The notes under the pieces were generated by a model, which saw only the letters and a list, made by a program, of their open reading frames with translations, made no database searches and was not told where the DNA came from. DNA of 64,000 nucleotides from Terriglobia bacterium (lineage in GTDB: Bacteria; Acidobacteriota; Terriglobia; 20CM-2-55-15). Below, piece after piece: positions 58,127 to 64,000 of the stretch (position 1 is the first letter of the stretch; each line of letters opens with the position of its first letter). Position numbers and translations under genes: made by a program. The DNA lies in assembly GCA_965218585.1 (NCBI GenBank), contig CBDCLE010000002.1, positions 352,001 to 416,000 of the forward strand, written 5' to 3'.

Positions 58127-59362
58127 TCAATGAATCGGAAGCATGAGCCGTGCCAGCTCAGCTCCGTTCGGAAGCAGAAGGTCTTCCGGAACATGCTGCC
58201 CTTCAGTGATATACGAAACAGGCAACAGGAACCGGAGTAGTTCCCCGACGATCGACCCCCTGGTCTCGGTTTCGTCCATCTTCGTGAGGACAACCGACCG
58301 GGGTGAGAGCCGGTGAAAACGCTTGTAAATCTTGGAGACGTCTTCGGACTTTGTCGTGGCGCTGAGGACAAGCCTGACCCGTGCTCCGAGGCCATCCAGT
58401 CCGCTTTCGAGCTTACCCAGCCGCGCCCGGTCTGATGGACTGCAGCCCGCCGTGTCAACGAGAACAAGATCGTATTCGTCCAGCGACTCGACCAATTCTT
58501 TCAGCTGTGCCGTGTCGGAACATTTGAACGTTGTTATCCCGAGCAACTGTCCGTATCGGTAAAGTTGCTCTTGACCGGTCACCCTCTGGCCATCGGTTGA
58601 AATCAGAGCGACTTTCTTCCCGTGGCGAACCGCTGCATGTCCCGCAATCTTGGCGATAGTCGTCGTCTTACCAACTCCTGTGGGTCCAACGAACACACTG
58701 ACGACGCGCTCATTTGACGACAACTCATCCGGTGCTTCGATCGAAAACATCTCTCCAAGCAACGCACGTACGGCGTCTCGGGTCTTGCCCGACTTTGGAT
58801 TCAGCCTGGCGGCGCTTGCAAGGAGGTTCTCCACAAACTCCGGATCCACCCCCTGACCCACAAGCTCGCTGTAGATATCACCGTGCCGCCCTTCCCTCTG
58901 AGGAATGGCCTGTCCAAGCAGTCGGACGGACCTCTTGAGTTCATCAATCTCTTCGAGAACTTCTTCGATTCGGGCCTCAGCCTTGCGAATAAGACGCGAC
59001 GGCGCTTCGAACTCCGACATAGCTGCACCGGACACATCCGTCGACCGAACTACCCGATCCACATCAACGTTGGTCCGGACAGGCGGGTCCACCAGTTTCT
59101 CAGTGGTTCGCACGACCTCGGGCGAAATAGATACCGAATCGGGAACGTCAGCAGCGATCTTATCGATGGGGCTTTCAGTCACCGCCGTTTCGGTCGCTTC
59201 CTTGGCTCCTGCGGTCACCTCCCATCTCTGGCGCCGAATGCCCCAGGGCTTGCGAGTGGTCACGGGCCGCGTGCCGAGGATCATCGCGTCGGGACCGAAA
59301 TCGCGCTTGATATGCTCGACCGCTTCCTTGATCGACCGTGTTTGATACGTTTTCACCTTCAT
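58127..59362 (-). CDS. flhF: SRP-type GTPase FlhF
   Basis: GPTGVGKTTT, DTAG, TKMDE and GQHVPED motifs. Confidence 0.93.
   Translation of the reverse strand: MKVKTYQTRSIKEAVEHIKRDFGPDAMILGTRPVTTRKPWGIRRQRWEVTAGAKEATETAVTESPIDKIAADVPDSVSISPEVVRTTEKLVDPPVRTNVDVDRVVRSTDVSGAAMSEFEAPSRLIRKAEARIEEVLEEIDELKRSVRLLGQAIPQREGRHGDIYSELVGQGVDPEFVENLLASAARLNPKSGKTRDAVRALLGEMFSIEAPDELSSNERVVSVFVGPTGVGKTTTIAKIAGHAAVRHGKKVALISTDGQRVTGQEQLYRYGQLLGITTFKCSDTAQLKELVESLDEYDLVLVDTAGCSPSDRARLGKLESGLDGLGARVRLVLSATTKSEDVSKIYKRFHRLSPRSVVLTKMDETETRGSIVGELLRFLLPVSYITEGQHVPEDLLLPNGAELARLMLPIH
58140..58155 (-). promoter_or_regulatory. sigma54 promoter upstream of fliA (inside the flhF 3' end)
   Basis: TGGCACGGCTCATGCT (GG-N10-GC). 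Confidence 0.6.
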
Positions 59363-61393
59363 TGTCCAACAACTCCTTGCGACACAATCTGCAGGTTCGG
59401 TGGGATGTCATTCGGAGAAACAATCGTCAACTGGGGGATGAACCTTTCAATCAGCTTCCTCAGGTGGTAGCGGATGGTGCTCGAGCACAGTAAGGTCCAC
59501 TGAGACGTTGTCAACGTCTGACAGGTTGTACCGAGTTCCTGAACCAGATCTTCAAATCCCTTGGAATTCAGCGCCAGATATGCTCCCGACTCGTCCTGGA
59601 TAAGGGAATCCTTCAGCCTTGCTTCCCAGTCCGGGGACAGCGAAATAACAGGTAGCGCACCAGTTTCGTTCAGCAATGGTTTTGTGATCGACCGGCTCAG
59701 CGAAGCACGGACCGCTTCGGTTAACGTCGCGGGATCTTTCGTGCGAACACCGTAATCGGCAAGCGCTTCGAAGATCGTCACCAGATCGCGGATCGATACT
59801 TTTTCACGGAGGGGACTCTGCAGAACCTTCTGAACTTCACCAACCGAAAGTGTCGTGGGTACAAGTTCTTCAACGAGCTTCGGATAGGTTTCGCCAACGT
59901 GGTCGATCAGGGTCTTGACTTCCTGGCGGCCCAGCAGTTCGTGGGCATGCGACCGAATCATCTCGGTGAGGTGCGTGGCCAGGATCGTGGAAGCGTCCAC
60001 GACCGTGTAGTTCATCAGTTGCGCCCGTTCTTTGTTTTCTTTAGTTATCCAGAACGCGGGCAATCCAAACGTCGGCTCCTTGGTGGGCGTGCCTTCGATC
60101 GTTCCAGTGGTGCTCCCCGGATCGATTGCCATCAGGCGGTCCATCATCAACTCTGCCCGACCAATCTCGGAACCCTTGAGAAGAATGGAGTATTCCCGGG
60201 AACCCATCTTGAGGTTGTCAGTGATGTTGACGGGAGGCACAATCATGCCCAATTCTTGCACCAGTTGTTTTCGGATCGAGCGGATGCGGCTGAGGAAGTC
60301 TCCTCCGACCTGAGTGTCGACCAGACCCACGAGTCCATAGCCGATCTCCACGGCCAGACTGTCGATCTTGAGGAACGCAGTCGCCCGCTCTACGGTTCCC
60401 TCTTCAGGAGGTGGAGCTTCGAGGACGGGTTCTTCTGCGCGTTGCCTTGCCAGGCTCGACGCTGTCCAGGCAACACCACCCAGAACGGCTCCCAGAGCAA
60501 GAAATCCTACTGTCGGTAAACCCGGCACCAGTCCCAGACCGGTGACGATCGCGCATGCGAAAAAGACCGGCTTGGGATCTTCGAAAAGCTGACCCGCAAC
60601 GTCCTCACCCAGACTCCTTTCCGCAGCAGCGCGGGTCGTGATGAGGCCGCCACCGATAGAAATCAGGAGCGAGGGAATCGCGGTGACCAGACCATCACCA
60701 ATGGTGAGGATCGTGAAGGTCTCGAGCGCAACCAGAGCGTCCATGCCGTTCTGGAACATACCAATGAACAGGCCGCCAACGATGTTGATCAGAGTGATAA
60801 GAATGGATGCCATCGCGTCACGCTGTGTGAATCGAATGGCACCGTCCGTCGCTCCGTAGAAGTCAGCTTCCCGGCCAACTTCAGCTCGACGGTCGCGGGC
60901 CTCATCCTGATCGATGATTCCCGCATTGAGGTCAGCGTCGATCGACAACTGCTTTCCGGGCAGGGCGTCCAGGGTGAATCGTGCCGTGACTTCTGAAATA
61001 CGCACGGCACCGTGGTTGATAACGACGTACTGGATGATGATCAGGACGAGGAAAATGATCAGACCTACGGCGTAATTCCCCCCCGACGACGAATTGTCCG
61101 AAGGCACCGATGACGTTTCCGGCGGCGCCGAAACCCTCCCCTCCGTTGAGAAGAATGAGCCGGGTGGAGGCAATGTTCAGTGAAAGTCGAAACAACGTCG
61201 TCAGCAACAGGATGGACGGAAATGCTGAAAACTGGACCGGCTTTATCACGTAGAGGGCTGCGAGCAGAACGACGACAGACAGCGAAATGTTGGTCGAAAT
61301 CAGGAGATCCAGGAAGACCGGCGGCAGAGGCACCAATAGCGCTGTCAAAATAACGATGACAACCGCAGGCATGGCTACCTGTGCTTTGACCAT
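59359..61393 (-). pseudogene. flhA: export gate FlhA, +1 frameshift in a G7 run
   Basis: FGQFVVGG continues to NYAVGLIIF only with G6; observed run is 7 (61078-61084). Confidence 0.88.
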
Positions 61394-61520: not shown

Positions 61521-62588
61521 TTAACCCCTTCTCTTCATGCGTTTACGTACCTTGAAGACGTAAGCCAGGACCTCGGCCACAGCCTTGTACAGATTGAGTG
61601 GAATTTCCTGGCCAACGTCCACGCTCCAGTACAGAGACCGGGCCAAGGGGACGTTTTCCACGCGTGGGATGTCATATTCCCGACCCGCCTCTTTAATCCG
61701 CTCGGCCAGAAAATCCTGCCCCTTGGCGATAACCCTGGGGGCGCCCATCAAATCCGGTTTGTACTCGAGGGCAACGGCAAAGTGCGTGGGGTTCGTGATG
61801 ATGACGTCCGCATCCTGAACAGCGGCCATCATTCTCTGCTTGGCCCGTTCGCGCTGGATGGATTTGATCTTTCCCTTCACCTGGGGGTTGCCGTCCATCT
61901 GCTTGTTGTCTTCCTTGACTTCGGACTTGGATTGCTTGAGGTTCTTCTCAAACTGGTACTTCTGGTAGAAAAAATCTATGACCGCTAATACGATCAGCGT
62001 GAGCACGATGTAAGTGAGAACCCGAATGAAAATTTCCCTCAGCAGAGCGTTCCCGGCTTCGATCGGTACTCCGGGGGAGCGCATCAGTTCGTCCCAATTG
62101 CCTCCCAGGGTTTGCCAGATTCCAACAACCAGCGCAGTCAAAAGGACAAAGAAGCGGGCCCATTCGGCCGGATTGGCCTTGGTCTTGAGTTTCTCCAGAC
62201 CCTTGGCCGGATTCAATTTTTCCCATTTCGGCTTGAACGCCTTCGTAGCGATGTTCGGAAGTCCCTGAACAAGGCTGCCCGCGAGGGCTCCGACCCATGC
62301 ACCGGCCAGAATGGGTGCCACCAGCAACAGGAAGTACGTCCCCGTTTCGTTGATCACCGCCAGCATGGCAGACTCGGAGAGATCGTCGAGAATTCCCGTC
62401 TCGAGTACCCGCGACATCAGACCGCGAAATCCCCCCCGATAGCTGAGGACCCAGGCCAGGGCGACGACAGCGAAGGCAAGTGAGGCCGTCGAGGAAACCT
62501 GTTGGGATTGAGCAACCTGTCTTTCTTCACGCGCCTTACGGCGCCTTATAGAAGTCGGTTTCTCTGTCTTGTCGTCTTTTCCAGCCAT
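61521..62588 (-). CDS. flhB: export switch FlhB
   Basis: KTEKPT motif and NPTH autocleavage motif. Confidence 0.96.
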   Translation of the reverse strand: MAGKDDKTEKPTSIRRRKAREERQVAQSQQVSSTASLAFAVVALAWVLSYRGGFRGLMSRVLETGILDDLSESAMLAVINETGTYFLLLVAPILAGAWVGALAGSLVQGLPNIATKAFKPKWEKLNPAKGLEKLKTKANPAEWARFFVLLTALVVGIWQTLGGNWDELMRSPGVPIEAGNALLREIFIRVLTYIVLTLIVLAVIDFFYQKYQFEKNLKQSKSEVKEDNKQMDGNPQVKGKIKSIQRERAKQRMMAAVQDADVIITNPTHFAVALEYKPDLMGAPRVIAKGQDFLAERIKEAGREYDIPRVENVPLARSLYWSVDVGQEIPLNLYKAVAEVLAYVFKVRKRMKRRG

Positions 62589-62589
62589 G

Positions 62590-63339
62590 TCATCTCAGGA
62601 CTACGAAACCGGCCACCTCACGCATGATGGCCGGGAATACGACCAGGGATGCGCCCAGCGTGACGAGTCCCACAAGCACCTTGATCGGTAGAGCCAGGAT
62701 GATCGCGTTGAACTGAGGTTGCATCCGGGCGAGGAAACCAACAGCCATGTCACTGAGCAGAACAACAACGAACAAGGGGAAGCCGATCTTCCAGCCCACC
62801 ACAAAGATGTTGCCCGCGGTGGTCATGAGGAGATCGAACCAGTCGGCGATTGCGGGAACACCGCCAATCGGAAAACTCTCGTAGCTGAACTGCATTGCAC
62901 GGATGAATTCGTGATATTGATCGGCGGCCAGAAACACCGCATAGCCAATCAGCGTGAAGTAGCCGGACATGAGTGAGGATCGATTCTGAGTCTGCGGGTC
63001 AATGGCCTGGACGGCGGAAAAACCCATGCTGAAGCCGACGAGCTGGCCGGCAAAGTGCAGTACCGCAAAGGCAATGCGGATCCCCATCCCGAGCAGGAGA
63101 CCTACAAAGAACTCGCCTGGCAGGACGAGTTCGGGATGCTCCATCGCGGCCTCATTGAAAGGAATGATGGGAGCCACCCCCGCTGCGGTGACAAAGATCA
63201 GGAGCATGCGCACCTGACTCGGTATACCCGGATTGCCCCATATGGGGGAGAACGCCAGCATCGCTCCGATCCGGACTGCGACGATCAGGACGTGGATTAT
63301 GTAGAGGTATGGAATCTGGACTTCGAAGATCTCGCCCAT
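62590..63339 (-). CDS. fliR: export protein FliR
   Basis: Multi-TM; AGQLVGFSMG, IDP and RMQPQFN motifs. Confidence 0.93.
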   Translation of the reverse strand: MGEIFEVQIPYLYIIHVLIVAVRIGAMLAFSPIWGNPGIPSQVRMLLIFVTAAGVAPIIPFNEAAMEHPELVLPGEFFVGLLLGMGIRIAFAVLHFAGQLVGFSMGFSAVQAIDPQTQNRSSLMSGYFTLIGYAVFLAADQYHEFIRAMQFSYESFPIGGVPAIADWFDLLMTTAGNIFVVGWKIGFPLFVVVLLSDMAVGFLARMQPQFNAIILALPIKVLVGLVTLGASLVVFPAIMREVAGFVVLR

Positions 63340-63346
63340 GAGGGAA

Positions 63347-63459
63347 TCACCCTACGTACGGTTCGAACGAGCCCAGCAACGTCTCGGTGAAAGAGATCAT
63401 GTATCCCATCATCCAGGGGAAGATGACCAAAAAGACCAGGAAGGTCACAACGATACGCG
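63347..63459 (-). pseudogene. fliQ: 3' fragment of fliQ, cut by the IS110-type element
   Basis: RIVVTFLVFLVIFPWMMGYMISFT matches the FliQ C-terminal half; directly upstream of fliR; N-half absent from the window. Confidence 0.8.
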
Positions 63460-63619
63460 TTTCTATGGAAGGGGCTGTCAAGAGAAACACGTCCCCGCCG
63501 AGCGGACCACCGGACCCAACACTGTCGTGGCAGCCAGCCCCTGTCTCCGTTGAGACGAACTGTTGATCCGGCATCGCAGAGAAGTCGATCACTCATCACA
63601 ACGTGGTGTGGTTTCGAGA

Positions 63620-63780
63620 AACTGAAAAGCGCAAAGGGGTCGTGATTGCCGACCACGGTTCTATCTGAGCCTCGAGGGCTATCGCTTTTCCAGGTCGTGC
63701 GAGGGGGGATAGAGTATTACATGGGCCTTCAGCAAGCGCTGTGTGCCAACCGCGTATCGGATCCTCACCCTCGACCCTAC
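63620..63780 (-). ncRNA. candidate bridge RNA / seekRNA
   Basis: Two manually folded stem/internal-loop modules whose loops match the target flank (cgatacgcg) and the element end (atagaa). Confidence 0.68.
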
Positions 63781-63847
63781 CGTTCCGACGCCTCACCGAC
63801 GACGAGCGGTCGAATGCCTCGCGCTGTCGGCAGAAGTCTGGAAACGG

Positions 63848-64000
63848 CTATGTCGCCAAGTTCAGTTTCTTTGCGTTAAACGTGTCTCCTTTCTTCCACA
63901 TCTTCAGTGCGGTCGCTGCAATCTTCCTCGCCAGTGTCAGCCGAGCCATCTCCTTACGCTTGCCGTCTTTCTGGAGCCCCTCCAGGTAGCTTTTCCAAGG
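63848..64000 (-). CDS. IS110-family recombinase, C-terminal 50 aa
   Basis: Manual translation PWKSYLEGLQKDGKRKEMARLTLARKIAATALKMWKKGDTFNAKKLNLAT*; ARK...W..G..F is the typical IS110 C-terminus. Confidence 0.78.
   Translation of the reverse strand, partial: PWKSYLEGLQKDGKRKEMARLTLARKIAATALKMWKKGDTFNAKKLNLAT

What the first reader, a model, noticed from the sequence alone, without database searches (positions are those of the whole stretch)
63451..63850. Candidate bridge/seek RNA whose guide matches its own insertion site in fliQ
Seen: downstream of the IS110-like stop (63848) lies about 390 nt of non-coding sequence. On the minus strand, module 1 has an outer stem (63761-63776 pairing with 63693-63710) around an internal loop. 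Its 5' strand reads CGATACGCG (63751-63759), the exact reverse complement of the fliQ sequence abutting the element (coding strand CGCGTATCG, 63451-63459). Module 2 has a perfect outer stem GAAAAGCG/CGCTTTTC (63683-63690 with 63624-63631) and an inner stem at 63641-63657. Its loop strands are ATAGAAC, matching the element terminus cATAGAA, and ACCCCTTTG, complementary to the AAGGGG expected at the left end if the sub-terminal IR gccccttccat is mirrored there. A TTGACA box sits near the end, pointing outward. Established: IS110/IS1111 recombinases use a non-coding RNA with target- and donor-binding loops, and circle junctions form the promoter. Inference: this is an RNA-guided recombinase of an Acidobacteria-type lineage with the RNA in its 3' end. 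The next guide base (G, 63750) predicts an uninterrupted allele CCG-CGT-ATC, the conserved FliQ Pro-Arg/Lys-Ile, so the guide may really point at a flagellar export gene.
Basis: partly seen in the sequence, partly recalled or inferred. Interest (0 to 1): 0.85.

Follow-up and report, generated by a model that had tools for sequence, protein, structure and literature searches.

The report
RNA-guided IS1111-type insertion sequence in fliQ
This is one of 16 copies of an ordinary RNA-guided jumping gene (IS110/IS1111 family) whose own small guide RNA matches the short DNA motif where it lands, and it hit the flagellar gene fliQ by chance rather than by design.

Summary
The 390 nt after the transposase stop (minus strand) encode a two-module RNA. 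Its 5' loop strand (63759-63751) is an exact 9-nt complement of the fliQ flank (63459-63451).

Reading past the window shows a 353-aa DEDD/IS110-type transposase and a 1.56-kb element (63460-65018). It has sub-terminal inverted repeats and a long 3' non-coding region, which is the IS1111 layout.

The genome holds 16 near-identical copies at different sites. Their flanks give a consensus of five left bases (GTAAT), core AC and seven right bases (CGCGTAT). The two loop strands of module 1 carry exactly this.

In 22 related lineages the scaffold is conserved while both guide strands change with the flanks. The 5' guide scores 168/220 matches against a permuted mean of 93.6 (0/5000 permutations reach it). 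A strand in module 2 equals the last 7 nt of the right end in 22/23 rows.

So this is a new member of the known seekRNA/bridge-RNA class. fliQ is not a dedicated target, because flank positions 8-9 are random among the copies. The fliQ 5' half and fliP are missing, and the element's other flank is an unrelated gene, which points to a later IS-mediated deletion.

The parts
63347..63459 (-). fliQ 3' remnant. Its first 9 nt (63459-63451, CGCGTATCG) are the right target half read by the RNA.
   Evidence: PF01313 positions 50-73 only, 17.2 bits; ORF; intact orthologues.
63460..63461 (-). Core dinucleotide copy at the right junction. It reads AA in this copy and AC in 10 of 16 copies (AA in 5, GC in 1).
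63462..63472 (-). Right-end sub-terminal inverted-repeat arm (CCTTCCATAGA). It matches the left-end arm TATAAGGAAGG in 9 of 11 positions.
   Evidence: Read; conserved in relatives.
63476..63481 (-). Outward-facing TTGACA (-35 of a presumed circle-junction promoter), 16 nt from the element end.
   Evidence: TTGACA in 19 of 22 lineages (variant hexamers in 3); 16 nt from the end in 20 of 22. No complete promoter is found in the linear context.
63624..63690 (-). RNA module 2 (donor-binding multiloop). It has a closing stem 63690-63683/63631-63624, hairpin 1 at 63680-63668 and hairpin 2 at 63654-63638.
63658..63664 (-). Donor guide AUAGAAC, identical to the last 5 nt of the right end plus core.
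   Evidence: Equals the right-end terminal 7-mer in 22 of 23 rows, across the AC, TC, GC and CG cores.
63693..63700 (-). Linker GCACGACC, which can pair with 63654-63648 (GGUCGGC). This is an alternative to hairpin 2 and crosses the module 2 closing stem.
   Evidence: 94.8% of cells paired; column pair 94/156 is GC in 12 lineages and AU in 9.
63701..63772 (-). RNA module 1 (target-binding loop; the short seekRNA equivalent). It has an outer stem 63772-63761/63710-63701, an internal loop and an inner hairpin.
63749..63759 (-). 5' (T) guide CGAUACGCG-GU, complementary to the top strand of the core plus right target.
63714..63720 (-). 3' (B) guide GUAAUAC, identical to the left target plus core AC.
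63848..64000 (-). 3' end of the transposase gene. The whole gene is 63848-64909 (353 aa) and the left end of the element is at 65018, both outside the window.

Best explanation
The region is the right (3') non-coding end of an active-looking IS110-family element of the IS1111 type, about 1.56 kb long (window 63460-65018, minus strand). It encodes a guide RNA of about 165 nt downstream of a 353-aa DEDD transposase.

Module 1 is the target-binding loop. Its 5' strand (63759-63749) pairs with the top strand of core plus right target. Its 3' strand (63720-63714) has the same sequence as left target plus core, so it pairs with the bottom strand. Together they specify about 14 bp: GTAAT, core AC, CGCGTAT.

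Module 2 is a multiloop. Its joining strand AUAGAAC (63664-63658) reads the element's right end plus core in the excised circle.

Shown here: the family of the protein, the copy number, the target consensus, the co-variation of guides with flanks, and the conservation of the stems.

Inferred from the family's published mechanism:
- The element excises as a circle.
- TTGACA in the right end plus a -10-like hexamer in the left end then form a junction promoter that transcribes the transposase and the RNA together.
- The RNA-protein complex recombines circle and target at the core.

fliQ was hit because its codons GTA-CCG-CGT-ATC-G happen to fit core plus right target. A later recombination between two copies probably deleted the fliQ 5' half and fliP.
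For: Protein: Pfam DEDD_Tnp_IS110 (3.4e-17) and Transposase_20 (3.9e-9) both match. The sequence is distantly similar to the solved ISCro4 and IS621 recombinases.

Copies: there are 16 copies at 99.7-100% identity, and all 16 have intact 353-aa frames. The covariance model finds exactly 16 RNA matches in the genome.

Target consensus from the 16 copies:
- Left positions -4..0 are G11, T9, A13, A8, T10 of 16.
- The core at the left junction is AC in 16/16.
- Right positions 1-7 are C15, G13, C14, G14, T13, A10, T11 of 16.
- Position 8 onward is random.
- All of this matches the two loop strands.

Cross-lineage test (22 lineages):
- The T guide matches its own flank at a mean of 7.4/10 against 4.08 for other lineages' flanks. 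19/22 own-flank pairs score at least 7, against 18/462 cross pairs.
- The B guide scores 6.45/8 against 3.65. 19/22 score at least 6, against 39/462.
- On the model-based alignment the T sum is 168/220. The permuted mean is 93.6, the permuted maximum is 119, and 0/5000 permutations reach it.
- A column scan gives a clean diagonal for left target -1..-5, identical in 19, 15, 17, 16 and 16 of 22. The first core base is identical in both B-type guides in 22/22.
- The donor guide equals the right-end 7-mer in 22/23 rows.

Lineages found by the model and not used to build it: the donor 7-mer lies at the right end in 12/13 loci, and T matches are 4-8 of 10 against 3.5-4.9 for cross pairs.

Structure: 87.2% of cells are paired against 36-45% when the partners are slid. 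The covariation score is 0.314 against 0.134, and 0/500 shuffles reach it.

Layout: the order 'top-strand match 5' of bottom-strand match' and the 3' non-coding region are the published IS1111 features (PMC11187229: abstract, sections 6 and 9).
Against: No RNA, circle or transposition was observed.
- The only RNA-library data are metatranscriptome contigs of 95-99% alike variants. These cannot show transcription, strand or ends.
- Folding energy is no better than for shuffled sequence.
- No Rfam family matches.
- The NCBIfam IS110 model scores 129.5 bits, below its cut-off of 140.
- No convincing guide for the left end (right donor half) was found.
- 3 of 22 lineage representatives score poorly for the T guide: L021, L060 and L069.
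- The core's second base at the right junction is A in 5 of 16 copies, including this one, although all guides say C. This is unexplained.
- The lineages are related, so shuffle-type statistics overstate independence.
Confidence: 0.9

Rival explanations
1. The guide is aimed specifically at the flagellar export gene fliQ. The insertion would then be a dedicated, possibly regulatory, event at a conserved Pro-Arg-Ile codon stretch.
For: This copy has the best right-flank match of all 16 (9/9). The inferred empty site encodes the conserved V-P-R-I of FliQ.
Against: The other 15 copies, which carry the same RNA, lie in unrelated contexts. Flank positions 8-9 are random among the copies. The left half of the inferred fliQ site would match the B guide in only about 4-5 of 7 positions. 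At the DNA level, relatives' fliQ differs in the site. The fliQ 5' half and the FliP family were not found in this 95.5% complete assembly, and flhA looks frameshifted.
Confidence: 0.03
2. The 3' non-coding region is only an mRNA 3' UTR, terminator or protein-binding end sequence. The transposase protein would choose the target, and the complementarity to the flank would be coincidence or a by-product.
For: Folding is not more stable than shuffles. No expression data exist. The right donor half has no evident guide.
Against: Both loop strands change together with the flanks across 22 lineages while the scaffold stays fixed. Stems keep pairing through compensatory changes. The same architecture is experimentally established for relatives (PMC11187229, PMC11208160).
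Confidence: 0.04
3. The junction of the fliQ remnant with an unrelated left flank is an assembly artefact at a 16-copy repeat, not a real deletion. The fliQ 5' half and fliP would lie in unassembled sequence.
For: The assembly has 26 contigs and 95.5% completeness. Contigs of public runs break at the element's ends.
Against: The window's contig reads through the whole element into both flanks. Neither PF01313 positions 1-49 nor PF00813 was found anywhere in the assembly. flhA nearby also looks damaged.
Confidence: 0.15

Closest known systems
IS1111-group elements with a seekRNA (ISEc11, ISPa11, ISKpn4; Siddiquee et al. 2024, PMC11187229)
   Same: DEDD transposase of about 340-350 aa. Long non-coding region downstream of tnp. 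Sub-terminal inverted repeats. An RNA with a top-strand match lying 5' of a bottom-strand match. Natural re-direction between relatives by changes in these two stretches only. An outward -35 consistent with a junction promoter.
   Different: The host phylum is Acidobacteriota (Terriglobia). The transposase is weakly similar to curated models. The catalytic-serine motif reads G-L-A-V-x4-S-A rather than GL-P-x4-S/T-G. A second conserved module carries a right-end (donor) match. I could not see the paper's figures or supplements to compare folds in detail.
IS621 / IS110-group bridge RNA (Durrant et al. 2024, PMC11208160; Hiraizumi et al. 2026, PMC13626964)
   Same: A two-module logic, with a target-binding loop and a donor-binding loop. 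A core dinucleotide is present at both element boundaries and is read by the guides. There is a circular intermediate with a junction promoter. The RuvC-like and Tnp domains are shared.
   Different: The RNA lies 3' of the gene, not 5'. The order of the strand matches is reversed. The core is AC (TC, GC, CG or AG in relatives), not CT. The donor strand sits in a multiloop. Only the right-end side has a clear guide. No handshake guides were identified here.

Membership tests
IS110 family (DEDD recombinases) | N-terminal RuvC-like DEDD domain | tested here: met
   PF01548 at 3.4e-17, residues 7-146. Conserved D, E, D, D columns in 21 aligned homologues, read by eye.
IS110 family (DEDD recombinases) | C-terminal Tnp domain (PF02371) with a conserved Ser | tested here: met
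   PF02371 at 3.9e-9, 37.2 bits against a cut-off of 21.3. A conserved [S/T] lies in G-L-x-V-x4-[S/T]-[A/G/S]. The catalytic role is inferred.
IS110 family (DEDD recombinases) | Curated NCBIfam equivalog NF033542 score | tested here: inconclusive
   129.5 bits over 6-342 of 343 model positions, below the cut-off of 140. This is a divergent member.
IS1111 group | Longer non-coding region downstream of tnp | tested here: met
   390 nt downstream against about 108 nt upstream.
IS1111 group | Sub-terminal inverted repeats of 7-17 bp | tested here: met
   Arms of 11 bp, 9/11 complementary, lying 2 nt (left) and 0 nt (right) from the core. They are conserved in relatives.
IS1111 group | GL-P----S(t)G motif in the C-terminal domain | tested here: inconclusive
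   The spacing is kept but the residues differ (GLAVAMHMSA). Relatives have GLAVVT..[S/T][A/S/G].
seekRNA / bridge RNA | Two short stretches matching opposite strands of the target, flanking the insertion point, in the IS1111 order (top-strand match first) | tested here: met
seekRNA / bridge RNA | Guides co-vary with target among relatives (natural reprogramming) | tested here: met
   22 lineages plus lineages not used for the model.
seekRNA / bridge RNA | Donor-binding loop reading both donor halves | tested here: inconclusive
   Right end plus core is read (22/23 rows). No consistent match to the left end was found.
seekRNA / bridge RNA | RNA is made, binds the transposase and is required for movement | not testable with these tools
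   Only contigs of RNA libraries were available.
Rfam families | A match to any curated RNA model | tested here: not met
   No relevant hit at E up to 10 in 62000-64000.

The most novel reading that the evidence does not exclude
In this acidobacterial IS1111 clade the guide RNA may be a switch. The strand GGUCGGC (63654-63648) can pair with the linker after module 1 (63700-63693), which crosses the module 2 closing stem as a pseudoknot. It can also pair with the 3' arm of hairpin 2 (63642-63638). Both partners co-vary with it across lineages. Together with a donor loop that reads only the right end plus core, this would mean a donor-recognition and conformational cycle different from the IS621 bridge RNA. 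One possibility is a link to processing of a long RNA into a short seekRNA, or to the choice between excision and insertion.
Probability: 0.15. Interest if true: 0.5.

Novelty: new member of a known kind. Interest (0 to 1): 0.3.

Why it matters
It adds a well-resolved natural example of RNA-guided recombination. One scaffold is re-aimed at more than 20 different sites in soil Acidobacteriota, with five different core dinucleotides (AC, TC, GC, CG, AG). That is useful raw material for anyone mapping the rules of IS1111-type guides, which are less understood than IS621. For the host genome it explains a burst of 16 insertions and the loss of part of the flagellar export cluster. It does not reveal a new kind of system.

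Tried and rejected
- An anchor-free scan of each flank against 300 nt of each non-coding region had too high a background. Own-flank T scored 7.9 against 6.7 for cross pairs, and I did not use it as evidence.
- The first search for related loci with the single transposase found no relative.
- Rfam gave only chance snoRNA-like hits.
- A promoter scan of the linear region found none.
- The search for a guide to the left end (right donor half) gave only scattered column correlations. I read these as shared ancestry. A short AUAGC stretch at 63682-63678 fits this element's left end but not the relatives'.
- The ACCCCTTTG/left-end match is 8 nt in this element. The nearest relative (82% identical protein) keeps the left-end sequence but has CCCCAUGA in the RNA, and the other lineages differ too. 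I rejected it as probable chance.
- The palindrome idea for the target (an early model without the extra C) was dropped. It would break the fliQ reading frame, whereas core AC plus CGCGTAT fits.
- Public runs were all Logan contigs. Two metatranscriptome runs hold 95-99% alike variants of parts of the element, including the RNA region. DNA-run contigs break at 63452-63462 and 65018. No circle junction or empty site was seen. This shows neither transcription nor its absence.
- I did not use structure prediction, complex prediction, the protein atlas or the large protein searches, because the family assignment did not need them.
- Supplementary files of the papers were not opened. Durrant et al.'s Supplementary Table 5 and the ISfinder lists may already hold this element or its RNA model.

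Rows left out before counting: of the transposase loci fetched I used one insertion per lineage (22), chosen for having both ends. Left out were L004 (same site as L003), L010, L013, L015-L017 and L025-L028 (truncated or fragmentary), and the extra copies of multi-copy lineages.

Full report
**What is there**

The window is G000:C2:352001-416000. The minus strand of 63848-64000 is the end of an ORF that continues outside the window to 64909. It is 353 aa long. Pfam finds DEDD_Tnp_IS110 (3.4e-17) and Transposase_20 (3.9e-9). The NCBIfam model 'IS110 family RNA-guided transposase' aligns end to end but scores 129.5 bits, below its cut-off of 140. The only solved relatives by sequence are the ISCro4 and IS621 recombinases.

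BLAST of the region against the whole assembly finds 16 copies of a 1.56-kb element at 99.7-100% identity. All 16 have an open 353-aa frame. Comparing their ends sets the element at window 63460-65018.

In transposase sense the left junction reads flank, then AC, then GCTATAAGGAAGG... The right junction reads ...CCTTCCATAGA, then A(C/A), then CGCGTAT.... The sub-terminal arms TATAAGGAAGG and CCTTCCATAGA are inverted repeats (9 of 11). The non-coding region is about 108 nt upstream of the gene and 390 nt downstream. This is the layout that Siddiquee et al. describe for the IS1111 group (PMC11187229, section 6) and Durrant et al. for IS1111 bridge RNAs (PMC11208160, passages).

**The observation**

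The 9-nt complement between 63759-63751 and the fliQ flank 63459-63451 is exact (also, I11). The energy is no better than that of shuffled sequence (z -0.14; for the whole 398 nt z +1.15). The case therefore rests on comparison, not thermodynamics.

**Target of the 16 copies**

- Left positions -4 to 0 are G11, T9, A13, A8, T10 of 16.
- The next two bases are AC in 16 of 16.
- Right positions 1-7 are C15, G13, C14, G14, T13, A10, T11 of 16.
- Positions 8-12 are random.

The 3' strand of module 1 reads GUAAUAC (63720-63714), which is the same as left target plus core. The 5' strand reads CGAUACGCG-GU (63759-63749), which is the complement of core plus CGCGTATCG. So the RNA carries both halves of the consensus site, with the top-strand match 5' of the bottom-strand match. 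That order is reported for IS1111-type seekRNAs (PMC11187229, abstract and section 9).

The fliQ copy matches the right guide 9/9, but positions 8 and 9 are not constrained in the other copies. The 16 sites are in unrelated contexts. The element is therefore not aimed at fliQ.

**Relatives**

The protein occurs in 16 of 61 related genomes at E <= 1e-20 and in 12 of 401 genomes sampled from the phylum at E <= 1e-60. It is often present in many copies. Record titles of the nearest genomes name Terriglobia and Solibacteraceae MAGs.

I fixed the ends in multi-copy genomes by comparing copies. I then took one insertion from each of 22 lineages with 43-82% protein identity. Their 3' regions share a scaffold, but two stretches differ in every lineage (alignment A1).

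In a fixed-register test:
- The 5' stretch is complementary to its own right flank in a mean of 7.4 of 10 positions. 19 of 22 lineages score at least 7.
- Against other lineages' flanks the mean is 4.08, and 18 of 462 pairs score at least 7.
- The 3' stretch equals its own left flank plus core in 6.45 of 8 positions. 19 of 22 lineages score at least 6.
- Against other lineages the mean is 3.65, and 39 of 462 pairs score at least 6.

On the model-based alignment the own-flank sum for the 5' guide is 168 of 220. The permuted mean is 93.6 and the permuted maximum is 119, so 0 of 5000 permutations reach it.

A column-by-position scan recovers a clean diagonal for left target -1..-5, identical in 19, 15, 17, 16 and 16 of 22. 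The first core base is identical in both B-type guides in 22 of 22.

The poor scorers are L021 (an atypical copy), L060 (register) and L069 (see below). The lineages are kin, so these figures overstate independence. The changes are nevertheless numerous and specific. For example, the nearest relative changes one guide base and its flank changes with it.

**Module 2**

The strand AUAGA plus core, between two hairpins, equals the last 7 nt of the right end in 22 of 23 rows. This holds through AC, TC, GC and CG cores and an A/G change. The one exception is the fliQ copy itself.

A covariance model built from A1 (164 positions) finds exactly the 16 copies in this genome. It also finds matches in 10 of 151 sampled genomes of the phylum, counting this genome. 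In lineages it found that were not used to build it, the donor 7-mer again lies at the right end in 12 of 13 loci. These include AG-core variants. The 5' guide matches its flank in 4-8 of 10 positions, against 3.5-4.9 for cross pairs.

I found no consistent guide for the left end.

**Structure**

For the helices I named, 87.2% of cells are paired, against 36-45% with slid partners. The covariation score is 0.314 against 0.134 in shuffles, and 0/500 shuffles reach it.

Well supported:
- the inner outer-stem of module 1 (63772-63761 with 63710-63701);
- hairpin 1 of module 2;
- the core of the module 2 closing stem;
- a long-range helix, 63700-63693 with 63654-63648 (94.8% paired).

The last helix competes with hairpin 2 and crosses the closing stem. 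Hairpin 2 also forms in 21 of 22 lineages. Whether the RNA switches between folds is open.

**Promoter**

TTGACA is the hexamer in 19 of 22 lineages, with variant hexamers in the other three. It lies 16 nt from the right end in 20 of 22 lineages. The left end supplies a -10-like hexamer 16-18 nt further on, which is TATAAG at 18 nt here. The linear locus has no complete promoter. This fits the junction promoter known for the family (PMC13626964 section 4; PMC11187229 discussion). It is inferred, not shown.

**fliQ**

Only Pfam positions 50-73 of FliQ remain. Intact fliQ of a congener reads ...TTC GTA CCG CGC ATC GTC GTG ACC....

The element's other flank is the start of an unrelated signal-peptide ORF. 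The FliP family was not found in this 95.5% complete assembly, and flhA looks frameshifted. The simplest reading is that two copies, one in fliQ and one in the other gene, recombined and deleted what lay between. An assembly artefact is not excluded.

**Unexplained**

The second core base at the right junction is A in 5 of 16 copies, including this one, and C in 11. It is C at all 16 left junctions and in all three guides. The A is not linked to the few other polymorphisms.

**Verdict**

It is a new, well-documented member of the IS1111 seekRNA/bridge-RNA class, not a new kind of system. The flagellar-gene targeting idea does not hold.

Noticed in passing
window 59359-61393 (minus): flhA appears split by a frameshift. 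An N-terminal ORF (60932-61393) and the main ORF (59359-61173) overlap in different frames. FliP was not found in the assembly and fliQ is truncated, so the flagellar export cluster looks decayed.
   Followed up: partly
just outside the window, equivalent to 65019-65139 (L001:3019-3139, minus): The left flank of this IS copy is the first ~41 codons of a signal-peptide ORF, cut at the element. It is not fliQ. This suggests recombination between two IS copies with loss of the DNA between them.
   Followed up: partly
window 63460 and the same position in the other 15 copies: The second core base at the right junction is A in 5 copies and C in 11. It is C at every left junction and in all RNA guides, and the A is not linked to other SNPs.
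   Followed up: partly
window 63693-63700, 63648-63654, 63638-63642: Three co-varying segments are present. One strand has two alternative partners, and one of the two pairings crosses the module 2 closing stem. This may be an RNA switch or a pseudoknot.
   Followed up: partly
window ~63482-63545 (minus): The distal non-coding region holds further blocks conserved across lineages: GGGGCUGGYUGCC and GGGGAsnUGUUUCUCUUGACA. A possible hairpin would enclose the -35 box. I did not analyse these.
   Followed up: no
L069 (G098:C64), right junction and L069:959-1112: The right flank of one relative's element is a sibling copy's RNA gene, starting just after its B guide. The DNA that encodes the B guide looks like a left half-site, so this may be a self-targeted or nested insertion.
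   Followed up: no
L086, L091, L095, L099, L101, L103, L105 (G112): Seven copies of a distant relative share a left flank. Its reverse complement reads like a protein-kinase glycine-loop motif (LGNYEILEPLGAGGMG, read by eye). This lineage's guide seems aimed at a conserved motif of a paralogous gene family.
   Followed up: no
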